NCBI GenBank assembly: GCA_000004985.1
Contig: GG738876.1
DNA from: Naegleria gruberi
Taxonomy: Eukaryota
Direction: 5' to 3' (one strand)
Length of the DNA: 64,000 nucleotides
In this document: positions 4,303 through 44,804 of the stretch, in pieces
How positions within the stretch are numbered: the first letter of the stretch is position 1
How the letters are laid out: each line of letters starts with the position of its first letter
Program-made: the position numbers and the translations under genes
The notes under the pieces: model-generated
Told to the model about the DNA's origin: nothing
Seen by the model: only the letters and a program-made list of their open reading frames with translations
Databases searched by the model: none

Positions 4303-5715
4303 TCATTGTCGATAAATAAAACCTTCAATATCACACAATCGTGCGTAGTATCTTTTCATCAATGATGGTTCTCTTTCTTGCAACTTGTTCCATACTTCAT
4401 CACCACTATAATCGGAACACTCGAGGAGGTACTCCAAAAAGGTTAAATCCAAACCACCATCACGAGCATTGAACATGGAGTAATAGACACGTTCATCATC
4501 ATGAATACCAATTTCCTCTGCCTTAAATTTGGGAGGAAGACCTCTATAATTGCGAAATAGCTCGAGCATTGCCACTAATTTCTCATAAGCACCTTCTCTT
4601 ATCTTGGTGATGATTATTTGTCTGATGAGCTCGGTTTGATAGGTCTTGTATGGTTTGGATTGGAGGAAAATATTAAGATAGGGTTTCACCTTTTGGAATG
4701 ATTCATATTCTTGATATTGAGAAAATATATGTTCCAACTTGTAATATCTAACAATGTATGCTTCTAGTTGAGGATTTTCAATATCAAATATTCTTTCACA
4801 TTTTCCAAGTCTCTCACCTAAAAGTACATATACTCCTCTTGGTGATCTTTTTGAAACTTCCTCAATTGCAATTTGAAAGAAATCAAACCTTGCATTGAAT
4901 AATTCTGAGAGGTCGTGACGATATGGCATACGTAATGAGATACGTTTCATCATTTCACGAAACAAGCAACAACTACAATCTTCAAGATTTGGTATCTGGG
5001 TAATGGGAATCTTTTCAAAGAGTTCGAGTGTTGGATTTTTTAGTATGGAAATTTCAATGCACTCTAGGTCATAATTGACAGTTTTCAAAAGAGCATTATG
5101 AAAACTTGATCCATAATTGAAATTCTCACTTTGCAGTACCCTCTCCACTCCTTTCGAATAAATATGAGACAATTTCGCAAAGTTTACCAAAAAGTCCCTT
5201 GTACAAACTTCCATATCACTTCGAGGAATGTAATTCAAATTCCTACAAAACAAAATTTCCTTAACATCTTGACTATTCAAGCACCACTTAATTTCTTGAA
5301 AACTAATTCTAAAGTGGTGAAACAAATAATACCACTCATGTGCCATTATTCTCATCAGAACAACCTGACAAGAGGCAACATTTTCCAAAAATTCATCATC
5401 CTCCAATTTCCTTCTCAATTGTTTTGCTCTCTTCTTATAGATTCCTCTCATTCCCTTCGGACTCTGCTGATAATTGTGAAAATCATCATTCGGAAGAATT
5501 AATTCAGACTCGTGTTGAAGAGAGGAGGCTACTAAATCTTCATATCTACTAGCTGTCTGTTCTAGAAAGCATCTAATATGTCGTAGCCAATTTATTTGTT
5601 GTGTCTCAATGATGGAGAACCAATTCTTGTTAACCAACGCTGCTCGGAGAAGTAAATCACCAAGTGGAAGGAAGGAAAGAATTTCACTGATGCAATCATC
5701 ACCTGGTTCAATCAT
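4303..5715 (-). CDS. F-box-like domain protein (470 aa), otherwise unknown
   Basis: Uninterrupted 470-codon ORF with ATG at 5713-5715. The N-terminus (CISEILSFLPLGDLLLRAALVNKNWFSII) fits the F-box consensus (LP.E.L..IL..L....L.....VCK.W). No other recognisable domain. Confidence 0.5.
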   Translation of the reverse strand: MIEPGDDCISEILSFLPLGDLLLRAALVNKNWFSIIETQQINWLRHIRCFLEQTASRYEDLVASSLQHESELILPNDDFHNYQQSPKGMRGIYKKRAKQLRRKLEDDEFLENVASCQVVLMRIMAHEWYYLFHHFRISFQEIKWCLNSQDVKEILFCRNLNYIPRSDMEVCTRDFLVNFAKLSHIYSKGVERVLQSENFNYGSSFHNALLKTVNYDLECIEISILKNPTLELFEKIPITQIPNLEDCSCCLFREMMKRISLRMPYRHDLSELFNARFDFFQIAIEEVSKRSPRGVYVLLGERLGKCERIFDIENPQLEAYIVRYYKLEHIFSQYQEYESFQKVKPYLNIFLQSKPYKTYQTELIRQIIITKIREGAYEKLVAMLELFRNYRGLPPKFKAEEIGIHDDERVYYSMFNARDGGLDLTFLEYLLECSDYSGDEVWNKLQEREPSLMKRYYARLCDIEGFIYRQ

Positions 5716-6129: not shown

Positions 6130-6594
6130 TCAACATCAACTGCCCCAAACTTTTGTCCCTCATCAAAATCGAATTATCAATACTCGGATGCTGTCAATTT
6201 GATTAATGTGTTGAATTCTAATCAAATCCATTCTTTGTCAGTGGTGAAAGCTATGGTATGTTTCAACAAAATATTTGTCGATCTAAATTGACTATTTTCA
6301 GGTGGTAATTATGTTCCATTGCTCGCCAGAGAAATTTTAAAGTACAATACTAACAGTCAAAAGAAGATTTCATTCAAAGGATTGAGTGTTGGTAATCCAA
6401 CAATGGATAATGATTTGGATGCTAATGCCTATCTCCCATTCATGTTCCATCATGCTTTGGTTGGAAGTGAAGAATTTGATCTCTATCAAAAACAATGTCC
6501 AAACTTTAATACGGCTTTGATTGGTTGTACAATTCATACATGGATTTATTTTTATTGGAAAGGTTACAATTCCAATAAAAATAAATCCTTTCAA
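6130..6594 (+). pseudogene. Serine carboxypeptidase (peptidase S10) gene fragment / pseudogene, truncated and frameshifted
   Basis: Region 6290-6594 encodes ...GESYG|G NYVPLLAREILKYN...ISFKGLSVGNPTMDNDLDANAYLPFMFHHALVGSEEF.... This holds the S10 catalytic-Ser motif GESYAG-like and the INLKG/IGNG region, and a small gtatgt...ttttcag intron splits GESYG/GNYVP. Upstream (6130-6270) S10-like sequence (DAVNLINVLNSNQ ~ DVYNFLELFFDQF) lies in a different frame, with an in-frame TAA before the active-site exon. The downstream half is missing: the convergent gene ending at 6607 abuts it. Confidence 0.45.
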
Positions 6595-6606
6595 ATAATA
6601 AATATT

Positions 6607-7897
6607 TCATTGAAAAATTATAATATCCGAAAGATTGCCATCAATTACTCTATTCTTAAGATTTTCTCCTTGTTCCTTCAGATTCTTTGATTCTGAATTT
6701 GTTTCCCAATAAGCAATTAAATTGTCTCTTGCTGAAGTTATTTGAAGATGTTGATTTGGTTTTGGATTGGTAACTTTGTGAATGAGTTTGAATTTTGATT
6801 GAGAATCTAAGGAGTAAATTTGTGAATTATTGATCACTAGGAAAAAGGTTTTGTTTGAGCTACACATTCTACAGGAAATAACAGGTTCACCACATATTTT
6901 AGCAAGGTTGCTATGAAACTTATCAACCAAATATAAATTGAATTTGTCTGGAAATGTTGAATAAATTAGTAGTATCTCAAATATACTTACTTGTGAGATA
7001 AATCCAACTGTAATAGGATGCACAAATGTCTATAAAGTATTCATCTTCTCCCATTAAACTTATTGGTGCCAATTGTTTCATCATTGGCAAATTATTACCA
7101 TTATTTCCCATAGAATATCCACAATAGAAAATATTGTGATCCCTTGTTAAGGCAATAATATTGTGATCTCCATTCACTGTCTTGGTAAAGAAAGGTTCTT
7201 TGCACTCATTGGAAGGGTCAAGACAACAACATTGGATAGCTGGAATATTATTATCACTAGATGGTTGAGCTATCTCAAAAAATTGATTACTTCCACATGC
7301 CAAAAGCCTTCCATGTGATGTCAGAAAACAACAAGTAAATGCAGCACATGAAGTCTTTGTAATAAATTCCCCATCTTGTAATTGAAAATCCTCCAAGCAA
7401 GTCCATTCAATTTCTGAATTCTCAATTCCACTCTGTGAAAAAGTCTCAACTCTTTCTGTAAATTTTGTTTTCCTCACTCCAAACTCATTCCTATTCGCTG
7501 AATAACAAACAAACACTCTCGTTCTAATTAAATTCATCCCACCAGTACTTCCAGCACCACCACCACTAACAGATTGAAGCACCAAAACACAAGCATGATA
7601 ACTGACACTAATATTCACAATTCTTTCATTTGGAAATTTAAAGCTAATTTTATAATATTTCCAATTCCTGTTTTTATCAAGAGAAAATACTTCATCATCT
7701 TCCGACACTACAAAACAAGTTAATTCTCTACAGGAAATAAATTTAATTCTCCCAAATCGTTGCAAGTAATTGTTCGGAATGTTTGATGTTGGTTGATTTT
7801 TAAATCGGCTACTAGTAACGGTGTTGGTAAAAAATTCGATGGAATCTTGATAATGATTGAAGAGAGAAAATGTTTCTGCTGTTAGATTTAGAGACAT
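6607..7897 (-). CDS. RCC1-like / beta-propeller repeat protein (2 exons: 6991..7897, 6607..6947; ~416 aa)
   Basis: ATG at 7895-7897 (MSLNLTAETF...). A 43-nt intron 6948..6990 (gtaagtatatttgag...catttccag) in phase 1 joins ORFs 6977..7939 and 6607..7023. Repeated blade-like segments: CCFLTSHGRLLACGSNQFFEI, HNIIALTRDHNIFYCGYSMGNNG, ICGEPVISC, IAYWETNS. Paralogous to the gene at 19532..21040 (shared C.FLTS.GR.L..GS motif). Confidence 0.5.
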
Positions 7898-7968
7898 TTT
7901 TTTGTGAACTTTTACAATTTTTATTCCATGTGTACACAACTATATATTGTATTGCTGTTTCTGATCTA

Positions 7969-8420
7969 GTTAGAAAGAAAAGGAAAGGTAAAGAATATAG
8001 AAAGATGAAGAAAAAAAAAGAATTACAGCAGTTCATCAATTGGCACACAGATTTTGTGCCAACACATTACCTAAAGCGTAACCCTTCAATCAAAGGTACA
8101 CGAGCTACACAATGACCGTCAGATTTTGCTTTTAGTCTGAGCATCTTTTTTATTAGAAACTAATGTAATTCCCAATTGAATTGTAATTGTTTTCAAGGTA
8201 ATAATCATGAACGCAATAAGAATGAATATCAAATTGTGGTTTTATTCTTTTTAAAATGTTGCACATTTTCAATCCCCAAACTGAAACTACAAATTTTGCA
8301 ATTTATTTTTGTAAGCAATTTCAAACAATCCATATTATTTGCGAACAACCTAATATTAGAATTGTTCTCAATTATCAATAGTCAGAATTGTAATAACTGA
8401 TATTTGGATCAAGAGTCAAT
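7969..8420. repeat. Left arm of a long inverted repeat (pairs with 10130..10597)
   Basis: The reverse complement of 10130-10597 aligns with 7969-8420. Checked segments are ~95-97% identical (e.g. attggcacacagattttgtgccaacacattacctaaagcgtaacccttcaatcaaaggtacacgagctac vs the same with 2 substitutions). Identity decays toward the inner ends (~8330-8420 / 10130-10250). Confidence 0.75.
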
Positions 8421-8600
8421 GATGACATTTGTTAAATTTTTTGTAAAGTTTCATGTTCCGATTTTCAAAACCTTCCAATCAAGCAAAAACGGAAGGTTTG
8501 GAAAATCGAATAAGTTGAAACGAAACAATTTTTTGTTTTCCAACACAAAAAAAAACTAAAATCTGATCACAACATAACAACAACAAGAAGCTTCTTTAAC

Positions 8601-9266
8601 ATGATGATGGACCCGGAAACAGCCAGGTTGAAGGCCTATTTTGATGATTATTACGATCAATTCATTGATGGCCACATGGATGAGAATTTTACTAATACCA
8701 ATATTGACCATTACATTTCAACTCTTTTCAGCCGAATGGAATCAGATAAACCACCACTACCACCTGCGACTGTTGCCACTGAATGTGTTATTAGTATTGC
8801 AAATGAGAAGGATGATAGTCATAATTGTAACAATAAGATCATCATTGAATTATTAAGCTCCTTCTACTTGCAAACTCGTCGTGATCAACAAGAGGTTGAA
8901 ATTTGTGTCTACTTTGAAAAAACAAATGCAGAGCAGTGGCAACGAGTGTTTACTGCCACTGCTACCCTTGAAAAGAAGGGTCGATATAATATGAAAGCTT
9001 TTAGCAGAAAAGAACTCAAGAAGAGGCTTAAAGATCAACCTGGGTATAAGGTAAATCAAAAAGACAAATTCTATTTAGTGATTGGTCAATTCAAATTCGT
9101 ACTGGTTTCGAAACAACGTGATAAGGTACCAAAATGGCACAATCTAATTGTTGTCAGTAATAGAGAAGTCGTTTCTTCCGAATACTCTTTCACTAATTTC
9201 ACTAATAAGGCCCTTATCCCAGAATTCAACTTTGCTAAAGTTAATGATCAGCTTAGCTTTCATTGA
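8601..9266 (+). CDS. Orphan hypothetical protein (221 aa) inside the inverted-repeat cassette
   Basis: Clean ORF beginning ATGATGATGGACCCG in an A-rich context and ending in TGA. No motif I recognise (MMMDPETARLKAYFDDYYDQFIDGHMDENF...KFYLVIGQFKFVLVSKQRDKVPKWHNLIVVSNREVV...). Not transposase-like (no DDE/RNase H-like or zinc-finger signature). Confidence 0.45.
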   Translation: MMMDPETARLKAYFDDYYDQFIDGHMDENFTNTNIDHYISTLFSRMESDKPPLPPATVATECVISIANEKDDSHNCNNKIIIELLSSFYLQTRRDQQEVEICVYFEKTNAEQWQRVFTATATLEKKGRYNMKAFSRKELKKRLKDQPGYKVNQKDKFYLVIGQFKFVLVSKQRDKVPKWHNLIVVSNREVVSSEYSFTNFTNKALIPEFNFAKVNDQLSFH

Positions 9267-9407
9267 TGAGTTCGATTGCCAATACTACTTATAATTAGTT
9301 TAGTTTGGTGATCACTACATACTTTATATATTCTATATGTATCCATTCCTCTATCTATCCATACTATATATATTACTATCTATCCATCCAAGAGTATTCG
9401 AAATTTC

Positions 9408-9474
9408 AATTAATGGTAGTGGTTGGTGTTATTTAGAACCCATTTGAATAACAAGCGAACCACTACCATTAATT
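9408..9474. repeat. Perfect 17-bp stem / 33-nt loop hairpin (aattaatggtagtggtt ... aaccactaccattaatt)
   Basis: Direct inspection: 9408-9424 is the exact reverse complement of 9458-9474. It sits ~140 bp downstream of the stop of ORF 8601..9266. Confidence 0.8.
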
Positions 9475-9559
9475 GGAATTTTGATTGCTGCAGATGTTCA
9501 TGCTAGTATCTATAATCCATCCTTATTCAAATCCAGTCTTATTGATTGGTAATTTTCAA

Positions 9560-10050
9560 TTTTATGCATTAAAACCTGTAGGGACATCATCAATCAAACA
9601 CCTTACAGAGTGAAAGATAACAAGGAACTGATCTGTGATTAGTTTCTTGTTGAGTGGACCAAAGAGTGAGGTTGTCCAAACAATAACATAAGGCAACTTC
9701 TCTCATCCACTCTATTCGAATTGCTGTTATGCCATTCGAATCACAGCTGTACTCATTAGGGAGCATTAGTCTATTTTCGATTAAGTAATTGAGTATTTGC
9801 AATCTGTTGCTTGTCGCTGTTGGTAAAGTTTCAGATAATATCATACTTATTACACCTTAGTGATAGATCCATGATTAGTTTTCAGTTTACTATTTAATTT
9901 GGGCAACTTACTTTCCTTAATGTTATTGTTTGGACAACCTCACTCTTTGGTCCACTCAACAAGAAACTAATCACAGATCAGTTCCTCGTTATCTTTCACT
10001 CTGTAAGGTGTTTGATTGATGATATCCCTACAGGTTAATGCATATAAAAC
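9560..10050. mobile_element. Nested MITE-like element: ~130-bp near-perfect terminal inverted repeats (9560-9689 / 9920-10050) flanking a 230-bp non-coding core
   Basis: The reverse complement of 9920-10050 matches 9560-9689 at ~97% (ttttatgcattaaaacctgtagggacatcatcaatcaaacaccttacagagtgaaagataacaaggaactgatctgtgattagtttcttgttgagtggaccaaagagtgaggttgtccaaacaataacat). No coding capacity. Confidence 0.55.
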
Positions 10051-10129
10051 TAATAAAAATTGATTCAAATCAATTTGAATTTATTTGTTTAATTATTTTT
10101 CCTTGAAAATCTTGGAAAATCTTCAAATT

Positions 10130-10597
10130 ATTCTGCCGAGATTTGCAGCGAATATTGACTCCTTGTTTGAATATCAACCATAAAGAACAATTAGAATTGT
10201 TTCATTCAATTTTTCAATATATAGGTGAAAGAAAAAACTGTAAATTTGAAATTGATTACAAAAATAAATTTCAAAATTTGTAGTTTCAGTTTGGGGATTG
10301 AAAATGAGCAACATTTTAAAAAGAATAAAACCACAATTTGATGTTCATTCTTATTGAGTTCATGACAATTACCTTGTAAATATCACTATTCAATTGGGAA
10401 TTACATTAGTTTCTAATAAAAAAGATGCTCAGACTAAAAGCAAAATCTGACGGTCATTGTGTAGCTCGTGTACCTTTGATAGAAGGGTTACGCTTTAGGT
10501 AATGTGTTGGCACCAAATCTGTGTGCCAATTGATGAACTGCTGTAATTCTTTTTTTTCTTCATCTTTCTATTCTTTACCTTTCTTTTACATTCTAAC
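10130..10597. repeat. Right arm of the long inverted repeat (pairs with 7969..8420)
   Basis: See left arm. Confidence 0.75.
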
Positions 10598-10716
10598 ATC
10601 TCTGATATTCGAAACTTGAAAGTTTTCATTTAATTTCGAATTGATTGGAACGAAACAATCATTTTTGAATTTAATAGAACTTTCTCAAAATCAATCAATT
10701 TCAATTGACCAAAAAA

Positions 10717-11631
10717 ATGTCTCAAGACAATCTCACAGATGAAGAATCGACATATTTCATTAGAAATTATCCATTAACTCATCCTTTCATCATGGCACAC
10801 TATAAGAAACAACGAACCATTCCTGTATTGGCTGCTCCTCTTTCTAGTTTTGCAGTTAGTTGTGCTACCATCTCGTACTTTGCCTTTAGTTTAACCTTTC
10901 CCGAGAAGAGATTAGTAATGGATTATGTACATGATGAATATTCGAATAATGGAAGTGGAAAGCCCAGATATAGTGGTGGAATTGTGGATGTGGTGAGGAA
11001 GATTTATGCTGAAGAAGGAATTGCTGGAGTTTTGGGGAAGAAAGAGGCTGTAGCAGCATTGATTGAAATGGGAGCTACCATTGGATATTTTGCAACTATT
11101 GGAAATGTTGTGAAATCTTTTACTGTACCGAATAGTTGGTTAGAATTTGCTATTGACACTTTCTTAATGAATACTGTGATTCATCCAATTTTAGTCGTTT
11201 CGTTTGCCCTTCATAAGAGATTTGACGACAAAACGAAAGATAATAGGGGATTTATTGAGACTGCAAAGAAGATTTATTCAGAAAGTGGTGTGAAAGGATT
11301 TTATCGTGGTTTTGGTTGGTCTTTTTTATTCCACCTTGAAAAGGTTTACAAAAAAGGTTTAGCTTGGGTAATTCGTTCAGGAGTGGAATTTTTTCTTGAC
11401 ATTGAACATGAAAACTTGGATGCTGAAACACACTTTACATTGAAACATATTGAAATTAATTTAGTTAAAATCCTTTACGATGTGATAATGCCATTCTCAT
11501 CATCCTTGGGTAGATATGTTGGAGATCAGGGAGCTACCTATTCCAATTACTTTGATTGTGTGAAAAAGACTTACCAACAAGAAGGATTGAAAGGATTGTA
11601 TAAGGGTTCATGGGTGGCAATCTTTTTGTAG
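10717..11631 (+). CDS. Mitochondrial carrier (SLC25)-like protein, divergent (304 aa)
   Basis: First ATG is at 10717 (aaaaaaATGTCTCAAGAC); the track's 'MTKK' start is a TTG. There are three carrier-like repeats ending in G(I/V)xGxxxG-type motifs (GIAGVLGK, GVKGFYRGFGWSF, GLKGLYKGSWVAI). The canonical Px(D/E)xx(K/R) motifs are degenerate, so the call is tentative. Confidence 0.5.
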   Translation: MSQDNLTDEESTYFIRNYPLTHPFIMAHYKKQRTIPVLAAPLSSFAVSCATISYFAFSLTFPEKRLVMDYVHDEYSNNGSGKPRYSGGIVDVVRKIYAEEGIAGVLGKKEAVAALIEMGATIGYFATIGNVVKSFTVPNSWLEFAIDTFLMNTVIHPILVVSFALHKRFDDKTKDNRGFIETAKKIYSESGVKGFYRGFGWSFLFHLEKVYKKGLAWVIRSGVEFFLDIEHENLDAETHFTLKHIEINLVKILYDVIMPFSSSLGRYVGDQGATYSNYFDCVKKTYQQEGLKGLYKGSWVAIFL

Positions 11632-11671: not shown

Positions 11672-14600
11672 TTAAAACTTTAATCCTAACTGTTCCAACA
11701 TTTTTTTCATCTTTGCATGCTCCCTTCTCAATTGTTCCACTTCATCAATTTCCTCCATAATGATTGATGATGACTCTGCATTGTTGGTAGTAATAACTTC
11801 ATTGAATGGAATGTCCAAATCTCTGAATCTTTCCTTCATTGATTCATAAATATCCTTCTCCTCAATAATGAGTGGAAAATTTTGTCCAAAATAATTTAGT
11901 GTTAGTAAATTGGCCTTTACAAGGAATGGATTCTCTAACAGTATATTGGTGGCCGTTAAGGTTGTACTCAATTTCTCATCTACCATTTTCTTTATGAGTT
12001 TGAAGAACATGGAAAATGGTTTAAAATGTTCAAAGTTTTCCACACATGCAAGACAATTATCGTAATATTCGCATTTTTCTTTCAATAATCTCAAAATTTC
12101 ATCTCTCGACTCTCTATAGTTGTGAATTGTGGTGAGTGGATTTAATATTACTTCAATAAGAGTGCAGCCCAAACTCCAGAAATCAACTTCCTTTCCATAA
12201 TGATGATTCAAAACGCTTGGTGATTGATATCTGGGAGTTCCGTTTCCATATGACGTAGAAAATTGAGCATCCACAATTCTTGCCAATCCAAAATCTCCTA
12301 AAACATAATATTTCAAATCATTGGTAAAGTGGAAGAGAATATTTTCTGGTTTGATATCACGATGGATCATTGAATGTCTTTCATGAATGTGAATGAAGGC
12401 ATTCATTATGTGAATCGTCACATCAGAAATTAATGAAAGTAGATGTATGGCAAACTTTGAAGGAGAATAATCGAAAATTAATTTCTCATGGAAAATTTCA
12501 ATTTCATCTCTAAGAGTTCCTCCATTCATGTATTCCATAACTAGACATTCAGGGTCACAATCTTTCAATTTTGTTTTACTTTTTACCAAGCTGATACAAG
12601 TAACAATGTTTGGGTGATATCTGCATTTTTCCATCATTTTGAACTGTTTAAATAATAATGACTTTTTAGTCCTCATAATATTGCTACTTACCTCATCGAA
12701 TTTAGTTGTGCTCAATCCACTATCATCAAATTTGTAGAATTTGAAAACAAATAAACGTTTGGATTGGATGTGATAAAAAATGAATACTTTTCCTTGACTT
12801 CCTGTTTTCCCAAATTCCTTGATTTGCACAAATTCAGATTCCCGTTCTCTATTCAATAATAGAGATTCCTTTGATTCTCTTTCATTTTCGACAGTAATTA
12901 TAAAGGGTGTTGGTTCAGTAAATGATAAATATTCATCACTCTCATAAGATACTTGTGGCCTTGATTCTGCATTTGTAATATATGCTGAAAGAAATCCATA
13001 GTATTTCCCTTTCTCAAGTTCTGAAATTGGATATTTATGGAATGGAATAGAATTTTGTGTTACCCATGTCAATAAATTGGTTTGTTGTGTCATATCCTCT
13101 TCCAATAGTGATTTTCCGTTTACCAAGAAATCAAGTATTTTGATAAGAACTCTTTCATAATATTCCTTATCACTTCCCTTTTTTCCATTTTCAATAACTC
13201 TGTAGAGAAGATTTCTTTGGTAAGCATCTTTCTTTTCAACAAGTTGCTTCACAAGCTCACCCAAATTTTCAGAATATCCCATCTGTTCCAATAAATATTG
13301 AGCCACTTTGAAATATCCGTGCTCGATGGCTAAATCTACTGCTCTCAATCCGTTTCGTGTCTTTGTGTCCATGGAAAGCTTATACTTTTCCACCAACAAC
13401 TTGACTATTTCTAAAGCTCCAACAACTGATGCTCCATGAAGGAAAGTATTTCCCTCCAAAGTGGTCATGTTATTATCTGCTCCACGATCCATTAACCATT
13501 CAACAATATTGGCCTTGCCATAATATATCGCATAGTTAACAGGACTGGAATGTTTAACATTGGTAATTTGATTCATTAGCTTGTGCAGAGTTTCTTTTGA
13601 AAGTTTGGTTTCCAAATATTCCAAAACATTCAAGTGACCATGAATAGCTGCAGCATGAAGGATATTCTCACCATTGTTATCAATTTGTGGATCAGCGCCA
13701 TGTTCCAACAAAAATTGAAGACATTCCAATTGGCCCATAGTACTAGCTTGCAAAACAGGTGGTTGATAGGGATGAGTAGAGAAGTTTGGATCCACCTGCA
13801 AGTCTTCTATCAAATACTTTAAAATATCAATTCTTCCAACAGAACAAGCAGCAGATAGGCATCTTTGTACTGATTTTAGGTTGGTTTGCATAAAATCATC
13901 TCTTCTTGGCAAAACCAATTTGAAAATAGAGACATCCAAGCTGTTGAGTGGCACATATTCTAGAGGGAGGTTTCCAGATTTGTCAATTTTCAATGCCAGA
14001 TGAGGATATTTTTGTAGAATATACTCTATGAGATCCTTATTCTTTGATCCAATACTCAAGTGGGCAATATTCTTGTCTGCTTGGTATTCAACCTGTTCAG
14101 GATTAATATTTAATTCCTCGATAAGATACTTGACAATTCTTAAATGACCAAAATTGGCTGCCGTTGAGAGACAATCCAATTGGTTAAATTGACGTAATGT
14201 GAAAGTCTCCTTGTATTTGGTCAAATATTGTAATATTTCTAAATGGCCAAGTTCAGCATAAAGATTGGGAAAGTTTGCATTTGAGTTATTCAAATAGTAA
14301 AATCCATTCCTCATGAAATAATCTGCCAAATAAATATTCAATCCAAGTTCGGCACACCACAAAGTTGGATACTTGTTATTCACATCTTTGAATTTCTCAA
14401 CTGGATATTTATCCCTATTTGAAAGGAAATAGTAGAGAATTTTCATAGATCCATACATGGATGCCAAATGGTAACATGTTGGTTTCCTTGGATGATTGGC
14501 AGGTTCTAACAATGAAATTTCATTATGAATTGAAAGAATGTACTCGAAAATTTCCACTTGATCATAAATTGAAGCTAAAAACAGTGGAGAATAACCATCT

Positions 14601-15397
14601 ATATCTGAGCAAGAACAACTCAAGCCACCTTGTTGTTCATCAGCAATTAAATACTTGAAAATTGATAATGATCCATGCATGGCAGAATAATGCAAAACAT
14701 TCCTGCCTCTATGATCTATAAATTGCAAAGCCTCCTTGCCAAATTTTCCAACCAATTGTTGGAAAAGGCTTAAATTATCATTCATTGAAGCAATCATTAG
14801 AAGATTTCTACCCTCGGAATCTCTCATATCCTTCAAACTCTCCCAACATTCTTCAATCCACTCGAGAGGCACCATAAACAACAAATGCAATGGATGGCAC
14901 TCTTTGCAATCAATCACTGATTTTTCTGCTAATTTACACAATCTAACAAAAGACTCCTTCTCTTGTTTCACAATGGCATTCACGAACAATTGATGAACAT
15001 TATCATCATGATTAAATTTCTTTACATTGATCAATATTTCAACCATTGATTTCCTCTCGGAAATAATCATCCAATCTAACCAATTAAAATCCACGAGAGA
15101 AATTGACAAATCTACCAACTTGGTCAAATAAAACAATCTCAAGATGAAATTTGCTAAACTTGACTTTCTTCTCGTGATTAACTTGTTCAGGTAATTGTTT
15201 AATTTTCCCTCCAACATTAAGTAATTAATTAAATTTTGATTTAAATATAAATTCTGACCAACATTGATTGTATGTTGCTCATCCGAACAATTTCTCAGCA
15301 AGGCATTGGGTGAATCCTCCACGTACGCCTTCTCAAAGAGTAGAATTTCAGTGTTGAAATGATCTTCAAGAGGTGAAGGAGTGACTTTTCTTTCCAT
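11672..15397 (-). CDS. Ankyrin-repeat protein kinase (1241 aa, single exon): N-terminal ankyrin repeats (15 or more), C-terminal Ser/Thr-type kinase domain
   Basis: ATG at 15395-15397. Many ankyrin consensus units (G.N.LH.A...GH..IVKYLIE...). The kinase domain has a divergent Gly-loop (EFGKTGSQGKV), VFK lysine, HRDIKPENILF catalytic loop, DFGLAR, and GTPRYQSPS. A convergent 3' end lies 40 bp from the previous gene. Confidence 0.85.
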   Translation of the reverse strand: MERKVTPSPLEDHFNTEILLFEKAYVEDSPNALLRNCSDEQHTINVGQNLYLNQNLINYLMLEGKLNNYLNKLITRRKSSLANFILRLFYLTKLVDLSISLVDFNWLDWMIISERKSMVEILINVKKFNHDDNVHQLFVNAIVKQEKESFVRLCKLAEKSVIDCKECHPLHLLFMVPLEWIEECWESLKDMRDSEGRNLLMIASMNDNLSLFQQLVGKFGKEALQFIDHRGRNVLHYSAMHGSLSIFKYLIADEQQGGLSCSCSDIDGYSPLFLASIYDQVEIFEYILSIHNEISLLEPANHPRKPTCYHLASMYGSMKILYYFLSNRDKYPVEKFKDVNNKYPTLWCAELGLNIYLADYFMRNGFYYLNNSNANFPNLYAELGHLEILQYLTKYKETFTLRQFNQLDCLSTAANFGHLRIVKYLIEELNINPEQVEYQADKNIAHLSIGSKNKDLIEYILQKYPHLALKIDKSGNLPLEYVPLNSLDVSIFKLVLPRRDDFMQTNLKSVQRCLSAACSVGRIDILKYLIEDLQVDPNFSTHPYQPPVLQASTMGQLECLQFLLEHGADPQIDNNGENILHAAAIHGHLNVLEYLETKLSKETLHKLMNQITNVKHSSPVNYAIYYGKANIVEWLMDRGADNNMTTLEGNTFLHGASVVGALEIVKLLVEKYKLSMDTKTRNGLRAVDLAIEHGYFKVAQYLLEQMGYSENLGELVKQLVEKKDAYQRNLLYRVIENGKKGSDKEYYERVLIKILDFLVNGKSLLEEDMTQQTNLLTWVTQNSIPFHKYPISELEKGKYYGFLSAYITNAESRPQVSYESDEYLSFTEPTPFIITVENERESKESLLLNRERESEFVQIKEFGKTGSQGKVFIFYHIQSKRLFVFKFYKFDDSGLSTTKFDEVSSNIMRTKKSLLFKQFKMMEKCRYHPNIVTCISLVKSKTKLKDCDPECLVMEYMNGGTLRDEIEIFHEKLIFDYSPSKFAIHLLSLISDVTIHIMNAFIHIHERHSMIHRDIKPENILFHFTNDLKYYVLGDFGLARIVDAQFSTSYGNGTPRYQSPSVLNHHYGKEVDFWSLGCTLIEVILNPLTTIHNYRESRDEILRLLKEKCEYYDNCLACVENFEHFKPFSMFFKLIKKMVDEKLSTTLTATNILLENPFLVKANLLTLNYFGQNFPLIIEEKDIYESMKERFRDLDIPFNEVITTNNAESSSIIMEEIDEVEQLRREHAKMKKMLEQLGLKF

Positions 15398-27764: not shown

Positions 27765-28721
27765 ATGATTAAACCCAATACCACATCGTCCCTCGATCAT
27801 GAAAATAATCACAACTCCACTAGAAGTGTCATACAACAAGATGATTCGGAATCTAAACCAATCCAACTCTCAGAAAATCTGCATTTCAATTATTTGTACC
27901 TATCGGACGATGTAATTGGTGAAATTCTATCTTTTCATGATGATTTTCAATTTGTAGTAATGAATTGTGCATTGGTTTCAAAACAGTGGTTGAAAGTCAT
28001 TTCGGAACGATCAAAACTTTCATTGGAATGGAATAACTTGAAGAAATTGAAGGGAAGATTTTTACAGAATATCACAACTTTCACAGTGAGGGCTATTGAA
28101 GGAATTGGATTGATTAGTGACATACTGAAACAATTGAAATTTCTGGATATTTCTACTAATGCTATTGGATATAAAGGAGCTAGATATATTGGCCAATTGG
28201 AACAATTAAATCATCTTGAAATTAGAAATTGTAATATTGGAGTGGAGGGAGATAAATATATTCGTCAATTGCAACATTTGACTCATCTTGATATTGGATG
28301 CAATAACATTGGTGATGAAGGAGTCAAATATATTAGTCAATTGAAACCATTAACTAATCTAAATGTTTATTTAAATAATATTGGTGTTGAAGGAGCGAAA
28401 TATATTAGTGAGCTTAAACAATTAACTCATCTTGATATTGGGTGCAATGACATTGGTGGTGAAGGTGCCAAATATATTGGTACACTTGAAAATGTAACTC
28501 ATCTCAGTATGTCAGATAATAATATTGGTTGTGAAGGTGCAAAATATATTAGTGGAATGAAACATCTAAGTTTTCTCGATATTGCTACCAATCGTATTAG
28601 AGATGAGGGAGCGAAATATATTGGTGAAATGGAACAATTATCATTTCTGTTTATGAGATACAATATTATTAGTGATGAAGGAGCAAAATATTTAAGCGAA
28701 AGAGGATTCAATAATTGTTGA
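27765..28721 (+). CDS. F-box / leucine-rich-repeat (RNI-like LRR) protein (318 aa)
   Basis: ATG at 27765. F-box-like N-terminus (YLYLSDDVIGEILSFHDDFQFVVMNCALVSKQWLKVI), then ten or more 24-25 residue repeats of the form LxxLxIxxNxIGxEGAKYI. Confidence 0.7.
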   Translation: MIKPNTTSSLDHENNHNSTRSVIQQDDSESKPIQLSENLHFNYLYLSDDVIGEILSFHDDFQFVVMNCALVSKQWLKVISERSKLSLEWNNLKKLKGRFLQNITTFTVRAIEGIGLISDILKQLKFLDISTNAIGYKGARYIGQLEQLNHLEIRNCNIGVEGDKYIRQLQHLTHLDIGCNNIGDEGVKYISQLKPLTNLNVYLNNIGVEGAKYISELKQLTHLDIGCNDIGGEGAKYIGTLENVTHLSMSDNNIGCEGAKYISGMKHLSFLDIATNRIRDEGAKYIGEMEQLSFLFMRYNIISDEGAKYLSERGFNNC

Positions 28722-35721: not shown

Positions 35722-36879
35722 ATATATAATATCACACCACATAAAATTAACAGTACGTGACGGTCATATATAAACTACTATTCATGAATTGTAATGGTTT
35801 CAATCGTTGTATTACACGAGTAAATAATCAATTTGTCATTTTGAAAAATTACAATTTTAATTACAACAACTTAAAAACCACATTTTCTAAATTTCATATG
35901 GTAATCTCTCTGAATTATATTGTATACATACCAAAAAGTAATGTATCAATTATTTGCTATTTAAAACCTTGTATTTTTAAATATTTATCTATTAAACTTT
36001 AACTACTATATTTGGAATAAAATTTTCAATATTCTCAAGAAATAATTAACCAATGTTTTCATGGTTAATGTTAAATTATATAAAGATGATAATCAAGCAA
36101 AATAATATAAATTGTTAATGATTTAGTGTTTCAGGATTCAAATCTTATGTTTTTGTCAATTTATCTTCCTTATTTTTCAGTATTTTAAAAAAAGCCGAAT
36201 CAGAAAGATTGTAATTGTAATTTAATTTAGTTTCGTATATTGTTGGAGATGTAAATCATTAAGAATAAAAACTAGATACGAAAAAACATTGAAATTCTTG
36301 CTGGGCTAGTGGTAAATTTTTAACTTGGTCAAAATTCAAAAAATGCCACCAAAGCCAAGCAAGTTCATGCTTCGATCAAAAATTATGAAATCAACAAGAT
36401 CCAAGAACAAGAATGATGATGATGATCTCTCTAATATTTGTCCTGGTATTGATTTAAAAAGAATTGGTGATGTAAAATTGATTAATTTAATTGGAAAGAA
36501 AGTTTTTATTCGTGATGGTCGTTTATTCACCCATTCCGAACCTATTACAATATCATCTAGACAATGTACATGTTCTTCTTGTGGAAAATTGTATAGAAAT
36601 TCATTACGAAAGTACCATGACAGAACATTAGCAAAGAAAAATCAACAGTTCCGTAAAACAATCAAATCACTCAAAAGGAAAGTCAAAATATTGTCACATA
36701 ATGATGATGTTATTGTAGAAAAATTGAGATCACTGTTGGAACGTAATATTATCACACCAAATCATTTCTTTTATAGATTTATATCTAACACGATCCTCAA
36801 TGCCGACAAATCTTCACATTACTTCATGAATAGTAGTTTATATATGACCGTCACGTACTGTTAATTTTATGTGGTGTGA
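35722..36879. mobile_element. Candidate DNA transposon remnant: perfect 57-bp terminal inverted repeats (35722-35778 and 36823-36879) flanking ~1 kb with one ORF; right TIR abuts an assembly gap
   Basis: tcacaccacataaaattaacagtacgtgacggtcatatataaactactattcatgaa at 35722-35778 is the exact reverse complement of 36823-36879. Ns begin at 36880, so the true right boundary and any TSD are unknown. Confidence 0.4.
36343..36864 (+). CDS. Hypothetical basic protein (173 aa from first ATG) encoded inside the TIR-bounded element; its last ~14 codons run into the right TIR
   Basis: First ATG at 36343 (aaaaATGCCACCAAAG). Basic N-terminus, Cys cluster (CTCSSCGKLYRNSLRKYHDR) and a K/R-rich helical segment (KTIKSLKRKVKILSHNDDVIVEKLRSLLERNII). 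It is vaguely like the post-THAP region of P-element-type transposases, but without an intact zinc finger I can verify. Confidence 0.3.
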   Translation: MPPKPSKFMLRSKIMKSTRSKNKNDDDDLSNICPGIDLKRIGDVKLINLIGKKVFIRDGRLFTHSEPITISSRQCTCSSCGKLYRNSLRKYHDRTLAKKNQQFRKTIKSLKRKVKILSHNDDVIVEKLRSLLERNIITPNHFFYRFISNTILNADKSSHYFMNSSLYMTVTYC

Positions 36880-36929
36880 NNNNNNNNNNNNNNNNNNNNN
36901 NNNNNNNNNNNNNNNNNNNNNNNNNNNNN
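36880..36929. other. Assembly gap (50 N)
   Basis: Run of n characters immediately after a perfect inverted repeat. Confidence 1.
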
Positions 36930-39322: not shown

Positions 39323-41751
39323 ATGAAAAGAGAAACTTTTAAGGTTCATGCAATACAACAAGGAAGAAGGAATAATGATTCAACTCCTTCTTCTTCCTAC
39401 TCGGAAGGATTTTTAAAGATGAAGAAGAATGTAAATAATAGCTTGATGATGCTGGTTGCATTAATATCAATCATGCTGCTGTTGGGTTTCTCTCAATATG
39501 TTGAAGCATTGAATGGTGAGGGAGTTGATGTATCCAAGTGCACTTATCAGAGTTCTGTCTCATTGGGCTCTACCATGACTTTAAAGTGGAATGTTTTGAA
39601 GAATCCTAGTGATGCCTCCAATTATATTCTCGAATTTGGTTTAATTTGCACAAAGGCAGGTTATTGTTCCATTGGATTTGATCATCCGTATGGGCAGGGC
39701 ATGCAAAGTATTGATACCTTGTTTGCTTTTGTGAGTTCTGGAGTTGCCAATGTTCAGGATTGTTACTGCACCAATAAGCATTCAATTCCAACCATCGATT
39801 CGAACAATGGAGGTTCTAATGACTTTTTGGAAACTAATGGTGGAGTTGTGAATGGACAGTATCATTATAGATGGAGTAGAAAGATGAGTACTGGAGATTC
39901 ACAGGATGCAACCTTTAAGAATTCAAATGTTTATGTGAGTTGGGCCTATCATTCATCCTCTACCTCAATTTCTTCAACTCACACCGACTATGGAAGAAAT
40001 ATTGCAGTTAATTTCCTTTCCAATACACCAACTGAAACCTATGTGAAAGGAATGATTAATAATGGAGCTAGTAGTTCATCCTCTTCTTCCTCAAATTCAA
40101 CAAGTACTAGTAGCTCCACTTACACACAAGTTCCATCTCTATGCCCTTGCCATTGGTATTGCTTCACTAATCATGGCTGGATTAATTGTGACTTATTTGC
40201 CAACTGCTTTCAAATCCAACATTATTACTCACTTTTTATTTTATAGAAAGATTTCCAAGGTTATTCCATATGATTTTCCATTAGTTTCTTATGTGAATCA
40301 ATTCCTTGATTTGACAATTGGTGAAGTATTGGTGATTATTGTCTATTTGGCTATGAAGGTTGTTTGGTTTGTTTATGGATTTCTTACTCAAACTGATGAT
40401 TCTACAGCAAAGAAGGTAGCCTCTGGATTTACTCAATTAATTGTGTTTAACTATATTTTCCTGTTCATTCCAGTGACAAGATATTCAGTTTTACAAGCAT
40501 TATTTGGAATTTCATTCGAAAGATCAATCAAATTCCATAAATGGATTGGTGTCATGGTTTTCCTCTCTGCAACTGCTCATGGTATAGTGGAATTTATTGC
40601 GTACAGGGACAATATTCCATATATATTCTCGGTTGGTGATGGTTTTCCATTACTGGGAATTATTGCTTGGTTGACTCTTGGATTGCTTCTTTTATTCTCA
40701 CTTGAGCCAATCAGAAGAAAATTATATGAATTGTTTTTGGTATTCCACATTCCATTGACCTTTATCACAGTCACATTCTCAATTATTCATGGTGAAGGTT
40801 GGATTAATTTACTTCCATATATGGCATTCTCACTCTTTTTAATGGTAGTGGATTTTCTTTTGAGAGCAATAATTGGATTTGGCGTTCCAACCAAGTTGGT
40901 TCAGATTTCATATGATGAAGATGCTGAGGTTACAACTTGTGTATTCGAAAAGAGATTCTTGACCCTGTTCCACAATCCAAATCATGCTCACTTTGTCTTT
41001 GTTTACATTCCACAAGTTTCCATTTATCAACTCCATCCAATGACAATTAGTTCATGTGTTAAGTTGCATGATGGTAGTCATCAATTTACATGCCACATCA
41101 AACGAATGGAAGGAGGTTCTTGGTTAACCAAATTGGCCAACCTAGCCAAGTCAAAGAATGATTGATGAATATTTTGGCGTTAGAGTTGAAGGAGCATATG
41201 GAAATCTTTCCATTCCATTCTTCAATTCAGGACTATTCTCAAAAATAGAAGATCCAAAGCGTACCATTGTCTTTATCGTTGCTGGAATTGGAGCCACTCC
41301 TGCCAATGCTATCCTTACAGCTCTGGAAGATCCAAAATATAATGAACCAACTCCTTACAAGGTCTTTGTTAACTTTACAATGAGAAATGAAGCTCTCCTT
41401 CCTCACTTGACCAAAATTATTCAACAAAAACCCAATGTTGAAAGTTCCTTCTATATTACTGGTTCCAAATCAAAATCTCACAATGCCAATCAGATTGAAA
41501 TGCTAGAGAAGGGAAGAAGTACTGGAATAGATCATAGTAATGATAGAAGATTTATCAAGGGATCAAGACCAGTCTATGAAGAGTATCTTCATAAGGTGAA
41601 ACAATATGTTGCCCAATCTAAATCAAAGCCATACGTTTCAGTGTTTGCCTGTGGTCCAGCAGCCATGATGAATGCAGTTCATAATGCTGTAATTTCAGCT
41701 AGTGATATGGATTGTCGATTTGAACTTCATAAGGAAGAATTTGAATTTTAA
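39323..41751 (+). pseudogene. DOMON-domain ferric reductase / NADPH-oxidase-like gene, copy 1 of a tandem pair; reading frame broken by two single-nucleotide frameshifts (~40130 and ~41162)
   Basis: Three overlapping ORFs (39323..40246, 40062..41165, 41158..41751) together encode a signal peptide, a DOMON-like extracellular domain (YCSIGFDHPYGQGMQSIDTLFAF...YHYRWSRKMSTGDSQDATF), a six-TM ferric-reductase domain with heme-binding His residues (HKWIGVMVFLSATAHG; IHGEGW), the FAD motif HPMTISS and NAD(P)H motifs (FIVAGIGATPANAIL; FACGPAAMMNAV). Successive ORFs are offset by +1. Copy 2 is colinear without these shifts. These are either real pseudogene lesions or indel errors in low-complexity sequence. 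Confidence 0.55.
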
Positions 41752-42042
41752 TTTATAAACTATTTTGTTTTAAGGTAATAAAAGCATCTTGGAATTCCAA
41801 GAGGAAGTTTTTTCCTCTGTTGTTGAAAAATATGGACTTTTTTGGAACTTTTACGACAAGAATATGTTGTTAAGGATGCATCCTTCCCTTTTAATCTTCT
41901 TATTTTCCATTATTCCACATGAATCATTGTAAATTGCGCTGGTGTTTTTAAAAATTGGCGTTTTGCATGGCCTCCTCTCCTCAAAACCAAGAAGACAACT
42001 GGAAAAAATCTTTAACACAACCATTGAATAGGATTTTCACAC

Positions 42043-44474: not shown

Positions 44475-44804
44475 ATTGTTGATGAAATTAAATGATAATT
44501 TTCTGTGTCATTGTGTGAAGATCACTGAAGCGCTGTTGATTTTTTTTAAGTGATCACACAATTTAGAGCAAACATAACCTATTTCCAAACACTGACATTT
44601 GACGTCGTCATTAAAACAATCGAACAGTCAAAAAAAATCACCCATCTGTCCAACATCAAAGTTGTCAAAATTACGATAGAAAACAACCAAGTCATCCGTA
44701 ACAAGAGATAGTTTTCTTCTTCTTCATCTTTAAATTATAATCTTTTTTCAACAACACATCATCATATCCAACACAACCATTGGATATATTCACATCATAA
44801 GAGA

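What the first reader, a model, noticed from the sequence alone, without database searches (positions are those of the whole stretch)
7969..10597. A ~2.6-kb cassette bounded by ~450-bp inverted repeats, carrying an orphan 221-aa ORF, sits between two divergently transcribed host genes
The arms 7969-8420 and 10130-10597 are inverted copies with ~95-97% identity in the checked segments, so the duplication is recent. The left arm lies immediately upstream of the minus-strand RCC1-like gene (ATG 7897). The right arm lies immediately upstream of the plus-strand carrier-like gene (ATG 10717). Each arm therefore also serves as the 5' flank of an unrelated host gene. Inside are an orphan ORF (8601-9266) with no recognisable domain, a perfect hairpin and a nested MITE-like element. 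Two readings are possible. It may be a long-TIR or foldback-type DNA transposon carrying a passenger ORF. Alternatively an inverted promoter duplication has captured a novel gene. Either way this is structure that ordinary gene annotation does not explain.
Basis: seen in the sequence. Interest (0 to 1): 0.75.

Follow-up and report, generated by a model that had tools for sequence, protein, structure and literature searches.

The report
Inverted 357-bp repeats around orphan gene
In the amoeba Naegleria gruberi, two inverted 357-bp copies of gene-upstream DNA flank a species-specific gene of unknown function; it is most likely an old local duplication or a dead transposon relic, which makes it a modest curiosity.

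Summary
The inverted repeat is real but shorter than reported. The arms are 7969-8325 and 10245-10597: 357 columns, 94.4% identical, with sharp ends on all four sides and no similarity beyond them. The window is the Naegleria gruberi NEG-M reference. The 221-aa ORF is the annotated gene NAEGRDRAFT_50113. It has host-like codon usage and no homolog among about 15 billion proteins. A 488-bp foldback element (9560-10047) is nested in the spacer.

Every transposon hallmark I could test failed or was inconclusive. There is no significant target-site duplication, no further copy in the window or in the searchable collections, and no transposase, RT or recombinase relic. There is also no DIRS-type internal complementary region and no paralog of the ORF.

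A metagenome contig from a second strain, about 1% diverged, carries the right arm at the same junction. Most arm-to-arm differences therefore predate the strain split. That contig also reveals a 162-nt identical core, which points to gene conversion.

I favour a fixed local inverted duplication of 5'-intergenic DNA, kept partly uniform by gene conversion (0.45). A relic long-TIR element comes second (0.33). Copy number in the full genome, which I could not obtain, would decide between them. Interest is low to moderate.

The parts
7969..8325 (.). Left arm of the inverted repeat (357 nt), non-coding. Its outer end lies 71 nt upstream of the RCC1-like ATG (7897, minus strand). Its inner end lies 275 nt upstream of the ORF221 ATG.
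   Evidence: boundaries and identity; stop codons in all frames; arm ORFs have no protein match, though the positive control also failed
10245..10597 (.). Right arm of the inverted repeat (353 nt). Its outer end lies 119 nt upstream of the carrier ATG (10717, plus strand). It is present at the same junction in a second strain.
   Evidence: (metagenome contig L001 carries 10359-10597 joined to the same flank and carrier gene)
8012..8181 (.). Homogenised core of the arms (partner 10388-10557). It has 2 differences in 170 nt, against 18 in the other 187 columns. Of this stretch, 162 nt are identical to the right arm of the second strain. I infer a gene-conversion tract.
   Evidence: Fisher p = 3.7e-4; 162-nt identical run, permutation P = 4.5e-5; the two core differences are private to the window's right arm
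8601..9266 (+). ORF221 = NAEGRDRAFT_50113 / XP_002675739.1 (the annotated model starts at 8604). It is an orphan protein-coding gene with host-like codon usage and unknown function.
   Evidence: identity; exhaustive phmmer search finds only itself; no domain or PDB match; codon log-odds 0.21 in frame, against -0.13 to 0.04 in the other frames; AlphaFold2 pLDDT 36, not usable
9560..10047 (.). Nested foldback or MITE-like element: 137-nt inverted arms at 95% identity around a 215-nt centre. It has no coding capacity and no clear TSD.
   Evidence: fold -155.8 kcal/mol, z = -26; no TSD; no other copy in the window; no match in JGI metagenomes
9393..9489 (.). Imperfect 97-nt hairpin (32-nt arms, 88% complementary) downstream of ORF221.
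   Evidence: only sub-threshold miRNA-model noise in Rfam
8459..8508 (.). Near-perfect 18-nt-stem hairpin (one mismatch) 93-142 nt upstream of the ORF221 ATG.
8506..8537 (+). About 30-nt motif TCGAATnnnTTGnAACGAAACAAT(n)TTTTTG, with its AACGAAAC core 82 nt upstream of the ORF221 ATG. It is a direct repeat of 10636-10667.
   Evidence: score 18; 1 of 1000 shuffles; 16 of 2826 random genomic windows
10636..10667 (+). Second copy of the same motif, outside the cassette, with its core 68 nt upstream of the carrier ATG.
   Evidence: also present in L001
6977..7897 (-). First long exon of the RCC1-like gene. It is the left neighbour and is transcribed away from the cassette.
   Evidence: PF25390, PF13540
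10717..11631 (+). Mitochondrial-carrier-family gene (304 aa). It is the right neighbour and is transcribed away from the cassette.
   Evidence: PF00153, E = 1e-18; 99% identical protein in an ENA metagenome

Best explanation
This is a fixed, non-mobile local rearrangement in Naegleria gruberi. A 357-bp stretch of gene-upstream intergenic DNA was copied once, in inverted orientation, about 2 kb away. One copy now sits between the RCC1-like gene and the orphan gene NAEGRDRAFT_50113. The other sits just upstream of the mitochondrial-carrier gene. On this reading the orphan gene is a resident lineage-specific gene that happens to lie between the copies, and the 488-bp foldback element inserted into the spacer later. 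Intrachromosomal gene conversion between the closely spaced inverted copies has since kept a core of about 170 nt nearly identical, while the arm edges diverged by about 10%.

Shown: the repeat, its sharp ends, its age relative to a second strain, the uneven identity, and the coding signal and orphan status of the ORF.

Inferred: the duplication mechanism, gene conversion rather than selection as the cause of the uniform core, and any promoter or 5'-leader role of the arms for the outward-facing genes.
For: - Exactly two copies exist, with sharp boundaries at all four ends and no similarity beyond them.
- There is no significant TSD around the cassette or around either arm alone, and the arms have no terminal repeats of their own.
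- No transposase, RT or YR relic appears in the five non-ORF221 reading frames of the cassette or in ORF221 itself. There is no DIRS-type internal complementary region.
- ORF221 is single-copy. It has no paralog or homolog in the word-indexed search or the exhaustive search. Its codon usage matches neighbouring genes in the correct frame only.
- The spacing looks normal without invoking an insertion. The RCC1-to-ORF221 distance is 703 bp, or 346 bp without the arm. Six other divergent gene pairs in the window are 366-648 bp apart (ORF coordinates). The empty site required by the transposon model would be only about 190 bp.
- In a second strain about 1% diverged, the right arm sits at the same junction, and the arm-to-arm differences in the covered part are already present.
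- That strain's right arm has a 162-nt run identical to the window's left arm, flanked by dense differences (permutation P = 4.5e-5). The window's right arm has since gained 2 private changes in this core, about 1.2%, close to the background rate. This argues for gene conversion rather than strong constraint.
Against: - Copy number in the full 41-Mb genome was not obtainable. The 61 kb of remaining window excludes only very abundant families.
- A dead element of this age could have lost a short TSD, and some elements make none.
- The cassette fills a divergent intergenic region exactly, with both outer ends 71-119 nt from start codons. A single insertion into a bidirectional promoter explains this neatly.
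- The window holds two other inverted-repeat-bounded elements. One of them (35732-36879) also carries a single small orphan ORF and shares the rare 9-mer TGACSGTCA with the arms.
- No microhomology is visible at the duplication junctions (read directly from the sequence).
- The direct 30-nt motif shared by the ORF221 and carrier upstream regions is not explained by a simple inverted duplication.
Confidence: 0.45

Rival explanations
1. It is a relic of a non-autonomous long-TIR DNA transposon (MULE-like or foldback-like) of about 2.63 kb. The element inserted into an intergenic region of about 190 bp between the divergent RCC1-like and carrier genes, bringing ORF221 with it. It has since decayed, losing or blurring its TSD.
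For: - It has 357-bp terminal inverted repeats with sharp outer ends.
- The cassette exactly occupies a divergent promoter region.
- A weak flanking direct repeat exists: TCTGAT, or the 8-mers TTTCTGAT/TCTCTGAT with one mismatch.
- TIR-bounded elements occur nearby: the nested foldback at 9560-10047, and the element at 35732-36879, which abuts an assembly gap and also carries one small orphan ORF.
- The 9-mer TGACSGTCA occurs only in the arms of these two repeat pairs. There are 4 hits against 0.23 expected.
- N. gruberi carries about 5% repeats, including DNA transposons.
Against: - The TSD is not significant and needs 3-bp shifts past the end of the repeat.
- The terminal 50 nt are the least conserved part of the arms.
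- There is no transposase relic.
- There are no other copies in the window or in the searched collections.
- ORF221 has no paralog, no parent gene and host-like codon usage, so it is neither a Pack-MULE-type capture nor a multi-copy element gene.
- The implied empty site of about 190 bp is shorter than the six other divergent intergenic regions in the window.
Confidence: 0.33
2. It is an internally deleted DIRS1-like (tyrosine-recombinase) retroelement. Such elements have inverted terminal repeats of up to about 316 bp, with a divergent outer part and a conserved inner part. They make no TSD and carry a poorly conserved Gag-like first ORF.
For: - The inverted-repeat architecture matches the published description: outer part 75% identical, inner part 94-98% (compared with PMC3266345).
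- The lack of a TSD is expected.
- N. gruberi has 7 DIRS1-like copies.
- ORF221 sits in the position of a Gag-like ORF1.
Against: - No internal complementary region matches the termini or a circular junction.
- There is no RT, RNase H, methyltransferase or tyrosine-recombinase relic in any frame.
- The low identity of the outer arm is explained by a slippage-prone 15-nt repeat tract and by an 11-bp indel between strains.
- The arms, at 357 bp, exceed the reported 66-316 bp range.
Confidence: 0.05
3. The two arms are independent insertions, in opposite orientations, of a 357-bp dispersed repeat such as a solo LTR, a SINE or a MITE. Together they mimic a cassette.
For: Each arm has sharp ends on both its inner and outer sides.
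Against: - There is no TSD around either arm and no terminal repeat within an arm.
- There is no poly(A)-type 3' tail in the right orientation (read directly from the sequence).
- There is no third copy in the window.
- Two copies of a rare repeat within 2 kb would be an unlikely coincidence.
Confidence: 0.07
4. It is an assembly artefact, for example a mis-joined or chimeric Sanger contig that created a false inverted duplication.
For: No positive evidence. The scaffold does contain gaps elsewhere, for example 36880-36929.
Against: - The arms differ at 20 columns, so they are not one collapsed sequence.
- An independent metagenome assembly reproduces the junction of right arm, flank and carrier gene.
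- There are no N runs in 7900-10720.
Confidence: 0.03

Closest known systems
Small inverted segmental duplications homogenised by intrachromosomal gene conversion (the principle known from palindrome arms and from plastid and 2-micron inverted repeats)
   Same: There are two inverted copies close together with sharp ends and no TSD. A central tract is kept near-identical while the edges diverge.
   Different: This one is much smaller (357 bp). The arms are non-coding 5'-intergenic DNA. No evidence was obtainable for inversion isomers or for any function.
Long-TIR non-autonomous DNA transposons such as MULEs or Pack-MULEs and Foldback elements
   Same: It has terminal inverted repeats of several hundred bp around a non-transposase ORF, and it lies in the 5' region of genes.
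   Different: There is no 9-11-bp TSD. There is no parent gene for the ORF. No other copies were found. There are no subterminal tandem repeats and no transposase relic.
DIRS1-like tyrosine-recombinase retrotransposons (PMC3266345)
   Same: It has inverted terminal repeats with a divergent outer part and a conserved inner part, and no TSD. The family is present in N. gruberi.
   Different: There is no internal complementary region and there are no RT or YR genes. It is only 2.6 kb long.
MITE or foldback elements (applies to the nested 9560-10047 element only)
   Same: It is 488 bp long, has 137-nt inverted arms, has no coding capacity and forms a very stable hairpin.
   Different: No TSD is recognisable, and its copy number is unknown.

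Membership tests
TIR (class II) DNA transposon, long-TIR type (MULE or Foldback) | Terminal inverted repeats | tested here: met
   357-nt arms, 94.4% identity
TIR (class II) DNA transposon, long-TIR type (MULE or Foldback) | Target-site duplication directly flanking the termini | tested here: not met
   The best perfect repeat is TCTGAT, offset 3 bp on each side. 23 of 300 random position pairs do as well.
TIR (class II) DNA transposon, long-TIR type (MULE or Foldback) | Multiple dispersed copies in the genome | not testable with these tools
   No further copy was found in the 64-kb window, in JGI metagenomes or in GTDB genomes. The N. gruberi genome itself was not searchable.
TIR (class II) DNA transposon, long-TIR type (MULE or Foldback) | Transposase gene or recognisable relic (or, for Pack-type elements, a captured fragment with a parent gene) | tested here: not met
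   ORF221 has no Pfam or PDB hit. The five other frames of the cassette have no Pfam hit. ORF221 has no paralog or homolog.
DIRS1-like retrotransposon | Inverted terminal repeats with a divergent outer part and a conserved inner part; no TSD | tested here: met
   The outer 50 nt are 75% identical and the inner part 94-98%. There is no TSD. The outer divergence has a simpler cause, repeat slippage.
DIRS1-like retrotransposon | Internal complementary regions matching the element termini or circular junction | tested here: not met
   Local alignments of both termini and of the circular junction against the spacer score 12-19, against a shuffled mean of 12-13 (maxima 16-22). The best hits fall in low-complexity sequence.
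DIRS1-like retrotransposon | RT/RNase H, tyrosine recombinase (and methyltransferase) ORFs | tested here: not met
   No Pfam hits in ORF221 or in the five other frames
Local inverted segmental duplication with gene conversion | Exactly two nearby copies with sharp ends and no TSD | tested here: met
   (two copies within the window only; genome-wide status is untested)
Local inverted segmental duplication with gene conversion | Patchy identity: a homogenised tract flanked by older divergence | tested here: met
   2/170 against 18/187 differences. There is a 162-nt identical run against the second strain's arm, P = 4.5e-5.
Local inverted segmental duplication with gene conversion | Junction signature of the duplication mechanism (microhomology or template switch) | tested here: not met
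   No microhomology was seen at either junction when I read the flanks printed.
MITE or foldback (nested element 9560-10047) | Short, non-coding, long inverted arms | tested here: met
MITE or foldback (nested element 9560-10047) | TSD and multi-copy family | tested here: inconclusive
   No TSD of 4 bp or more lies at the ends. AT-rich termini make 2-3-bp TSDs undecidable. No other copy was found in the window or in JGI metagenomes.

The most novel reading that the evidence does not exclude
The cassette could be one member of an undescribed family of heterolobosean mobile units that make no TSD. Each unit would be bounded by inverted repeats and carry a single small orphan ORF. The element at 35732-36879 would be a second member, and the shared TGAC(C/G)GTCA site in the repeats would be a recognition motif. 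Alternatively, the arms could drive flip-flop inversion of the orphan gene between two gene neighbours.
Probability: 0.1. Interest if true: 0.55.

Novelty: new member of a known kind. Interest (0 to 1): 0.25.

Why it matters
If it is a local duplication, it is a small, clean example of gene conversion keeping inverted intergenic copies alike in a compact protist genome. It may also show two unrelated genes sharing duplicated upstream sequence. If it is a transposon relic, it adds a long-TIR element to the poorly catalogued repeat set of Naegleria. Either way the consequences are local. The orphan gene NAEGRDRAFT_50113 remains without function, and nothing here bears on a long-standing open question.

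Tried and rejected
1. A small RNA gene in the arms. Rfam at E up to 5 gave only sub-threshold miRNA-model noise, and that lay outside the arms. There are no tRNAs in the region. Folding the arm gave z = -2.3 and -1.2, which is unremarkable. Rejected.
2. Coding arms. All frames contain stop codons, and the shared short ORFs merely reflect DNA identity. Rejected.
3. Fold-based annotation of ORF221. The single-sequence AlphaFold2 model had pLDDT 36, so I ran no fold search. No alignment is possible because there are no homologs.
4. Viral origin. There is no relative of ORF221 in IMG/VR.
5. Finding the locus in other assemblies. Exact look-ups of ORF221 with three alternative starts and of the Ank-kinase gene found nothing on record. 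Only the carrier protein led to a second-strain contig.
6. A chimeric query made of the RCC1-like N-terminus plus 17 small ORFs from the arms, spacer and foldback, meant to catch called ORFs from other copies. It gave no hits. The intended positive control, the RCC1-like N-terminus, also failed, so this negative result is weak.
7. Cluster-member look-ups. P0008 proved to be a spurious low-complexity cluster mate on unrelated Logan contigs. Dead end.
8. Literature. No paper mentions NAEGRDRAFT_50113, XP_002675739 or D2VJR2, and none describes this repeat.
9. Similarity between ORF221 and the 173-aa ORF of the second inverted-repeat element. None.
I repeated it with stops replaced by X.
Full report
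ORIGIN OF THE WINDOW. The window is eukaryotic, with about 33% G+C. The 221-aa ORF is 100% identical to 'predicted protein [Naegleria gruberi]'. Exact look-ups place it as NAEGRDRAFT_50113 / XP_002675739.1 / D2VJR2. They also place the F-box gene at 4303-5715 as NAEGRDRAFT_50112 on the same 396,977-bp scaffold. The neighbours of the cassette are an RCC1-like gene on the minus strand (ATG 7897), a mitochondrial-carrier-family gene on the plus strand (ATG 10717) and an ankyrin-kinase gene.

THE OBSERVATION. The inverted repeat is real and far beyond chance: 7969-8325 against 10597-10245, 357 nt, 94.4% identity, E = 3e-156. A global alignment has 357 columns, of which 20 differ. The arms are not about 450 bp long. 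Local alignments of the next 125 nt on the inner side and of the outer flanks score no better than shuffled sequence (96/500 and 301/500). All four ends are therefore sharp.

Identity across the arms is patchy. The outer 50 nt are 75% identical with indels, 8012-8187 is 98% identical, and 8190-8325 is 94%. The outer stretch is a slippage-prone 15-nt repeat tract. The arms carry stop codons in every frame. They match no Rfam family and no tRNA, and they do not fold unusually well.

The spacer holds four features:
- ORF221 at 8601-9266;
- an 18-nt-stem hairpin at 8459-8508;
- a 97-nt imperfect hairpin at 9393-9489;
- a 488-bp foldback element at 9560-10047, with 137-nt arms at 95% identity and a DNA fold z of -26.

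THE ORF. ORF221 has no Pfam or PDB match. It has no relative in IMG/VR. Its only hit is itself, both in the word-indexed search of 5.8 billion clusters and in the exhaustive phmmer search of 1.84 billion representatives. It is therefore single-copy in the annotated N. gruberi proteome and absent from other sequenced Naegleria species as far as sequence search can see.

Its codon usage scores 0.21 bits per codon in frame, against -0.13 to 0.04 in its other five frames. The long ORFs scored from the window range from 0.10 to 0.33. It therefore looks like a genuine host-adapted coding sequence. AlphaFold2 without an alignment gave pLDDT 36, so a fold comparison would have been meaningless and I did not run one.

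A SECOND STRAIN. The carrier protein has a 99% identical match in an ENA metagenome. Its 2,355-bp contig, L001, is about 1% diverged from the window over coding and intergenic DNA. L001 begins inside the right arm, at window position 10359, and continues through the same arm-to-flank junction into the carrier gene. Three conclusions follow.
- The right junction is not an assembly artefact.
- Across the part L001 covers, it shares the window's right-arm state at 11 of the 14 columns where the window's two arms differ. The arms had therefore already diverged before the strains split.
- At the two core positions where the window's arms differ (10481 and 10514), L001 carries the left-arm state.

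Comparing L001's right arm with the window's left arm gives a 162-nt run with no difference, flanked by 7 differences in 30 nt on the inner side and several on the outer side. A permutation test gives P = 4.5e-5. Within the window alone the contrast is 2/170 against 18/187 differences (Fisher p = 3.7e-4, with post hoc boundaries).

The window's right arm has since picked up two private changes in that core. That is about 1.2%, close to the background rate, so strong purifying selection is unlikely. I read the core as a gene-conversion tract between the two closely spaced inverted copies. This is an inference.

TRANSPOSON TESTS.
- TSD: the best perfect flanking direct repeat is TCTGAT. It requires moving both boundaries 3 bp beyond the end of the repeat, and 23 of 300 random position pairs do as well.
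- Neither arm on its own has a TSD or its own terminal repeats.
- Copies: blastn and nhmmer find no other copy of the arm or the foldback in the window. Exact-pattern scans of JGI metagenomes and GTDB genomes were empty. The N. gruberi genome itself could not be searched. The window-level negative only excludes families of thousands of copies.
- Coding relics: the five non-ORF221 frames of 7969-10597 have no Pfam hit at E up to 0.1.
- DIRS1-like model: published DIRS1-like elements have inverted terminal repeats with a divergent outer part and a conserved inner part, make no TSD, and occur in N. gruberi (PMC3266345). That resembles this case. However, their defining internal complementary regions are absent, and so are RT and recombinase genes.
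- Pack-MULE-type capture: this requires a parent gene, and none exists.

SPACING ARGUMENT. Six other divergent gene pairs in the window are 366-648 bp apart from ATG to ATG (coordinates). Under a local-duplication model the RCC1-to-ORF221 interval is 703 bp with the arm, or 346 bp without it. The ORF221-to-carrier interval, minus the foldback and the arm, is about 600 bp. All of these are ordinary. Under the insertion model the empty site would be about 190 bp, shorter than any of the six. This is weak evidence, but it points the same way.

WHAT DOES NOT FIT NEATLY.
- A motif of about 30 nt, TCGAATnnnTTGnAACGAAACAAT..TTTTTG, occurs in direct orientation upstream of both ORF221 and the carrier gene. 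Its AACGAAAC core lies 82 nt and 68 nt upstream of the two ATGs. One copy is inside the cassette and the other outside. The match scores 18, reached by 1 of 1000 shuffles and by 16 of 2826 random genomic windows. Its AACGAAAC core lies in sense within 300 nt upstream of an ATG only at these two genes. It may be a shared regulatory site or chance. A simple inverted duplication does not explain it.
- The 9-mer TGAC(C/G)GTCA occurs four times in the window against 0.23 expected. All four are in the arms of this repeat and in the terminal repeats of a second inverted-repeat-bounded element at 35732-36879. As a post hoc shared word, its chance probability is roughly 0.05-0.15 by my estimate.
- That second element abuts an assembly gap and carries a single 173-aa ORF without Pfam hits. 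The ORF is unrelated to ORF221.
- These points keep a mobile-element reading alive.

VERDICT. The structure is real, somewhat smaller and older than described, and fixed in at least two strains on its right side. I favour a local inverted duplication of 5'-intergenic DNA, partly homogenised by gene conversion, around a resident orphan gene (0.45). Next come a dead long-TIR element (0.33), a deleted DIRS-like element (0.05), two independent insertions of a dispersed repeat (0.07) and an artefact (0.03).

Any promoter role of the arms, transcription of ORF221 and inversion of the spacer are all untested. The decisive computation is a search for the arm in the complete N. gruberi genome and in related Naegleria genomes. 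Published resources exist for follow-up: repeat content is about 5.1%, and methylome, chromatin and Nanopore data are available.

Interest is low to moderate. It is a tidy local example of known processes, not a new kind of system.

Noticed in passing
window 35732-36879: A second cassette bounded by inverted repeats. It has terminal repeats of at least 65 nt at 97% identity (35732-35796 and 36817-36879) around about 1 kb of AT-rich DNA (26% G+C). It carries a 173-aa ORF (36343-36864) with no significant Pfam hit (best E = 0.011, below threshold), and this ORF runs into the right repeat. The right repeat ends exactly at a 50-N assembly gap, so the element may be larger or repeated elsewhere in the genome.
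   Followed up: partly
window 8113-8121, 10448-10456, 35758-35766, 36845-36853: The near-palindromic 9-mer TGAC(C/G)GTCA, which extends to the 10-mer TGACGGTCAT, occurs only four times in 64 kb against 0.23 expected. All four lie in the arms of the two unrelated inverted-repeat pairs. It could be a shared protein-binding site or coincidence.
   Followed up: partly
window 8506-8537 and 10636-10667: A direct repeat of about 30 nt, with its AACGAAAC core 82 nt and 68 nt upstream of the ORF221 and carrier ATGs. It was reached by 1 of 1000 shuffles and by 0.6% of random genomic windows. It is not found upstream of the other 24 gene starts tested in the window.
   Followed up: yes
window 39494-41754 and 42202-44477: A tandem (direct) duplication of about 2.2 kb at 80-85% identity that covers two long plus-strand ORFs. 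It looks like a paralogous gene pair.
   Followed up: no
window 28126-28691: An array of diverged direct repeats with a 72-nt offset, 69-77% identical, inside the 27765-28721 ORF. It encodes an internally repetitive protein.
   Followed up: no
L001 (ENA ERZ929261, contig k127_62562) and L002: An environmental metagenome contains a N. gruberi-like organism about 1% diverged from the reference. It also holds a 49% identical carrier homolog on a separate short contig. The first contig ends inside the right arm, as expected if the assembler broke at the inverted repeat.
   Followed up: partly
window 10717-11631, 6977-7897, 11672-15397: The plain ORF translations of the carrier, RCC1-like and ankyrin-kinase genes are not present as exact sequences in the protein collection. 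The neighbouring F-box gene and ORF221 are present. The reference gene models for the three genes therefore differ from the simple ORFs or are missing.
   Followed up: partly
window 6542-6588: A 47-nt near-perfect palindrome (89%) between the two RCC1-like ORF segments, possibly within an intron.
   Followed up: no
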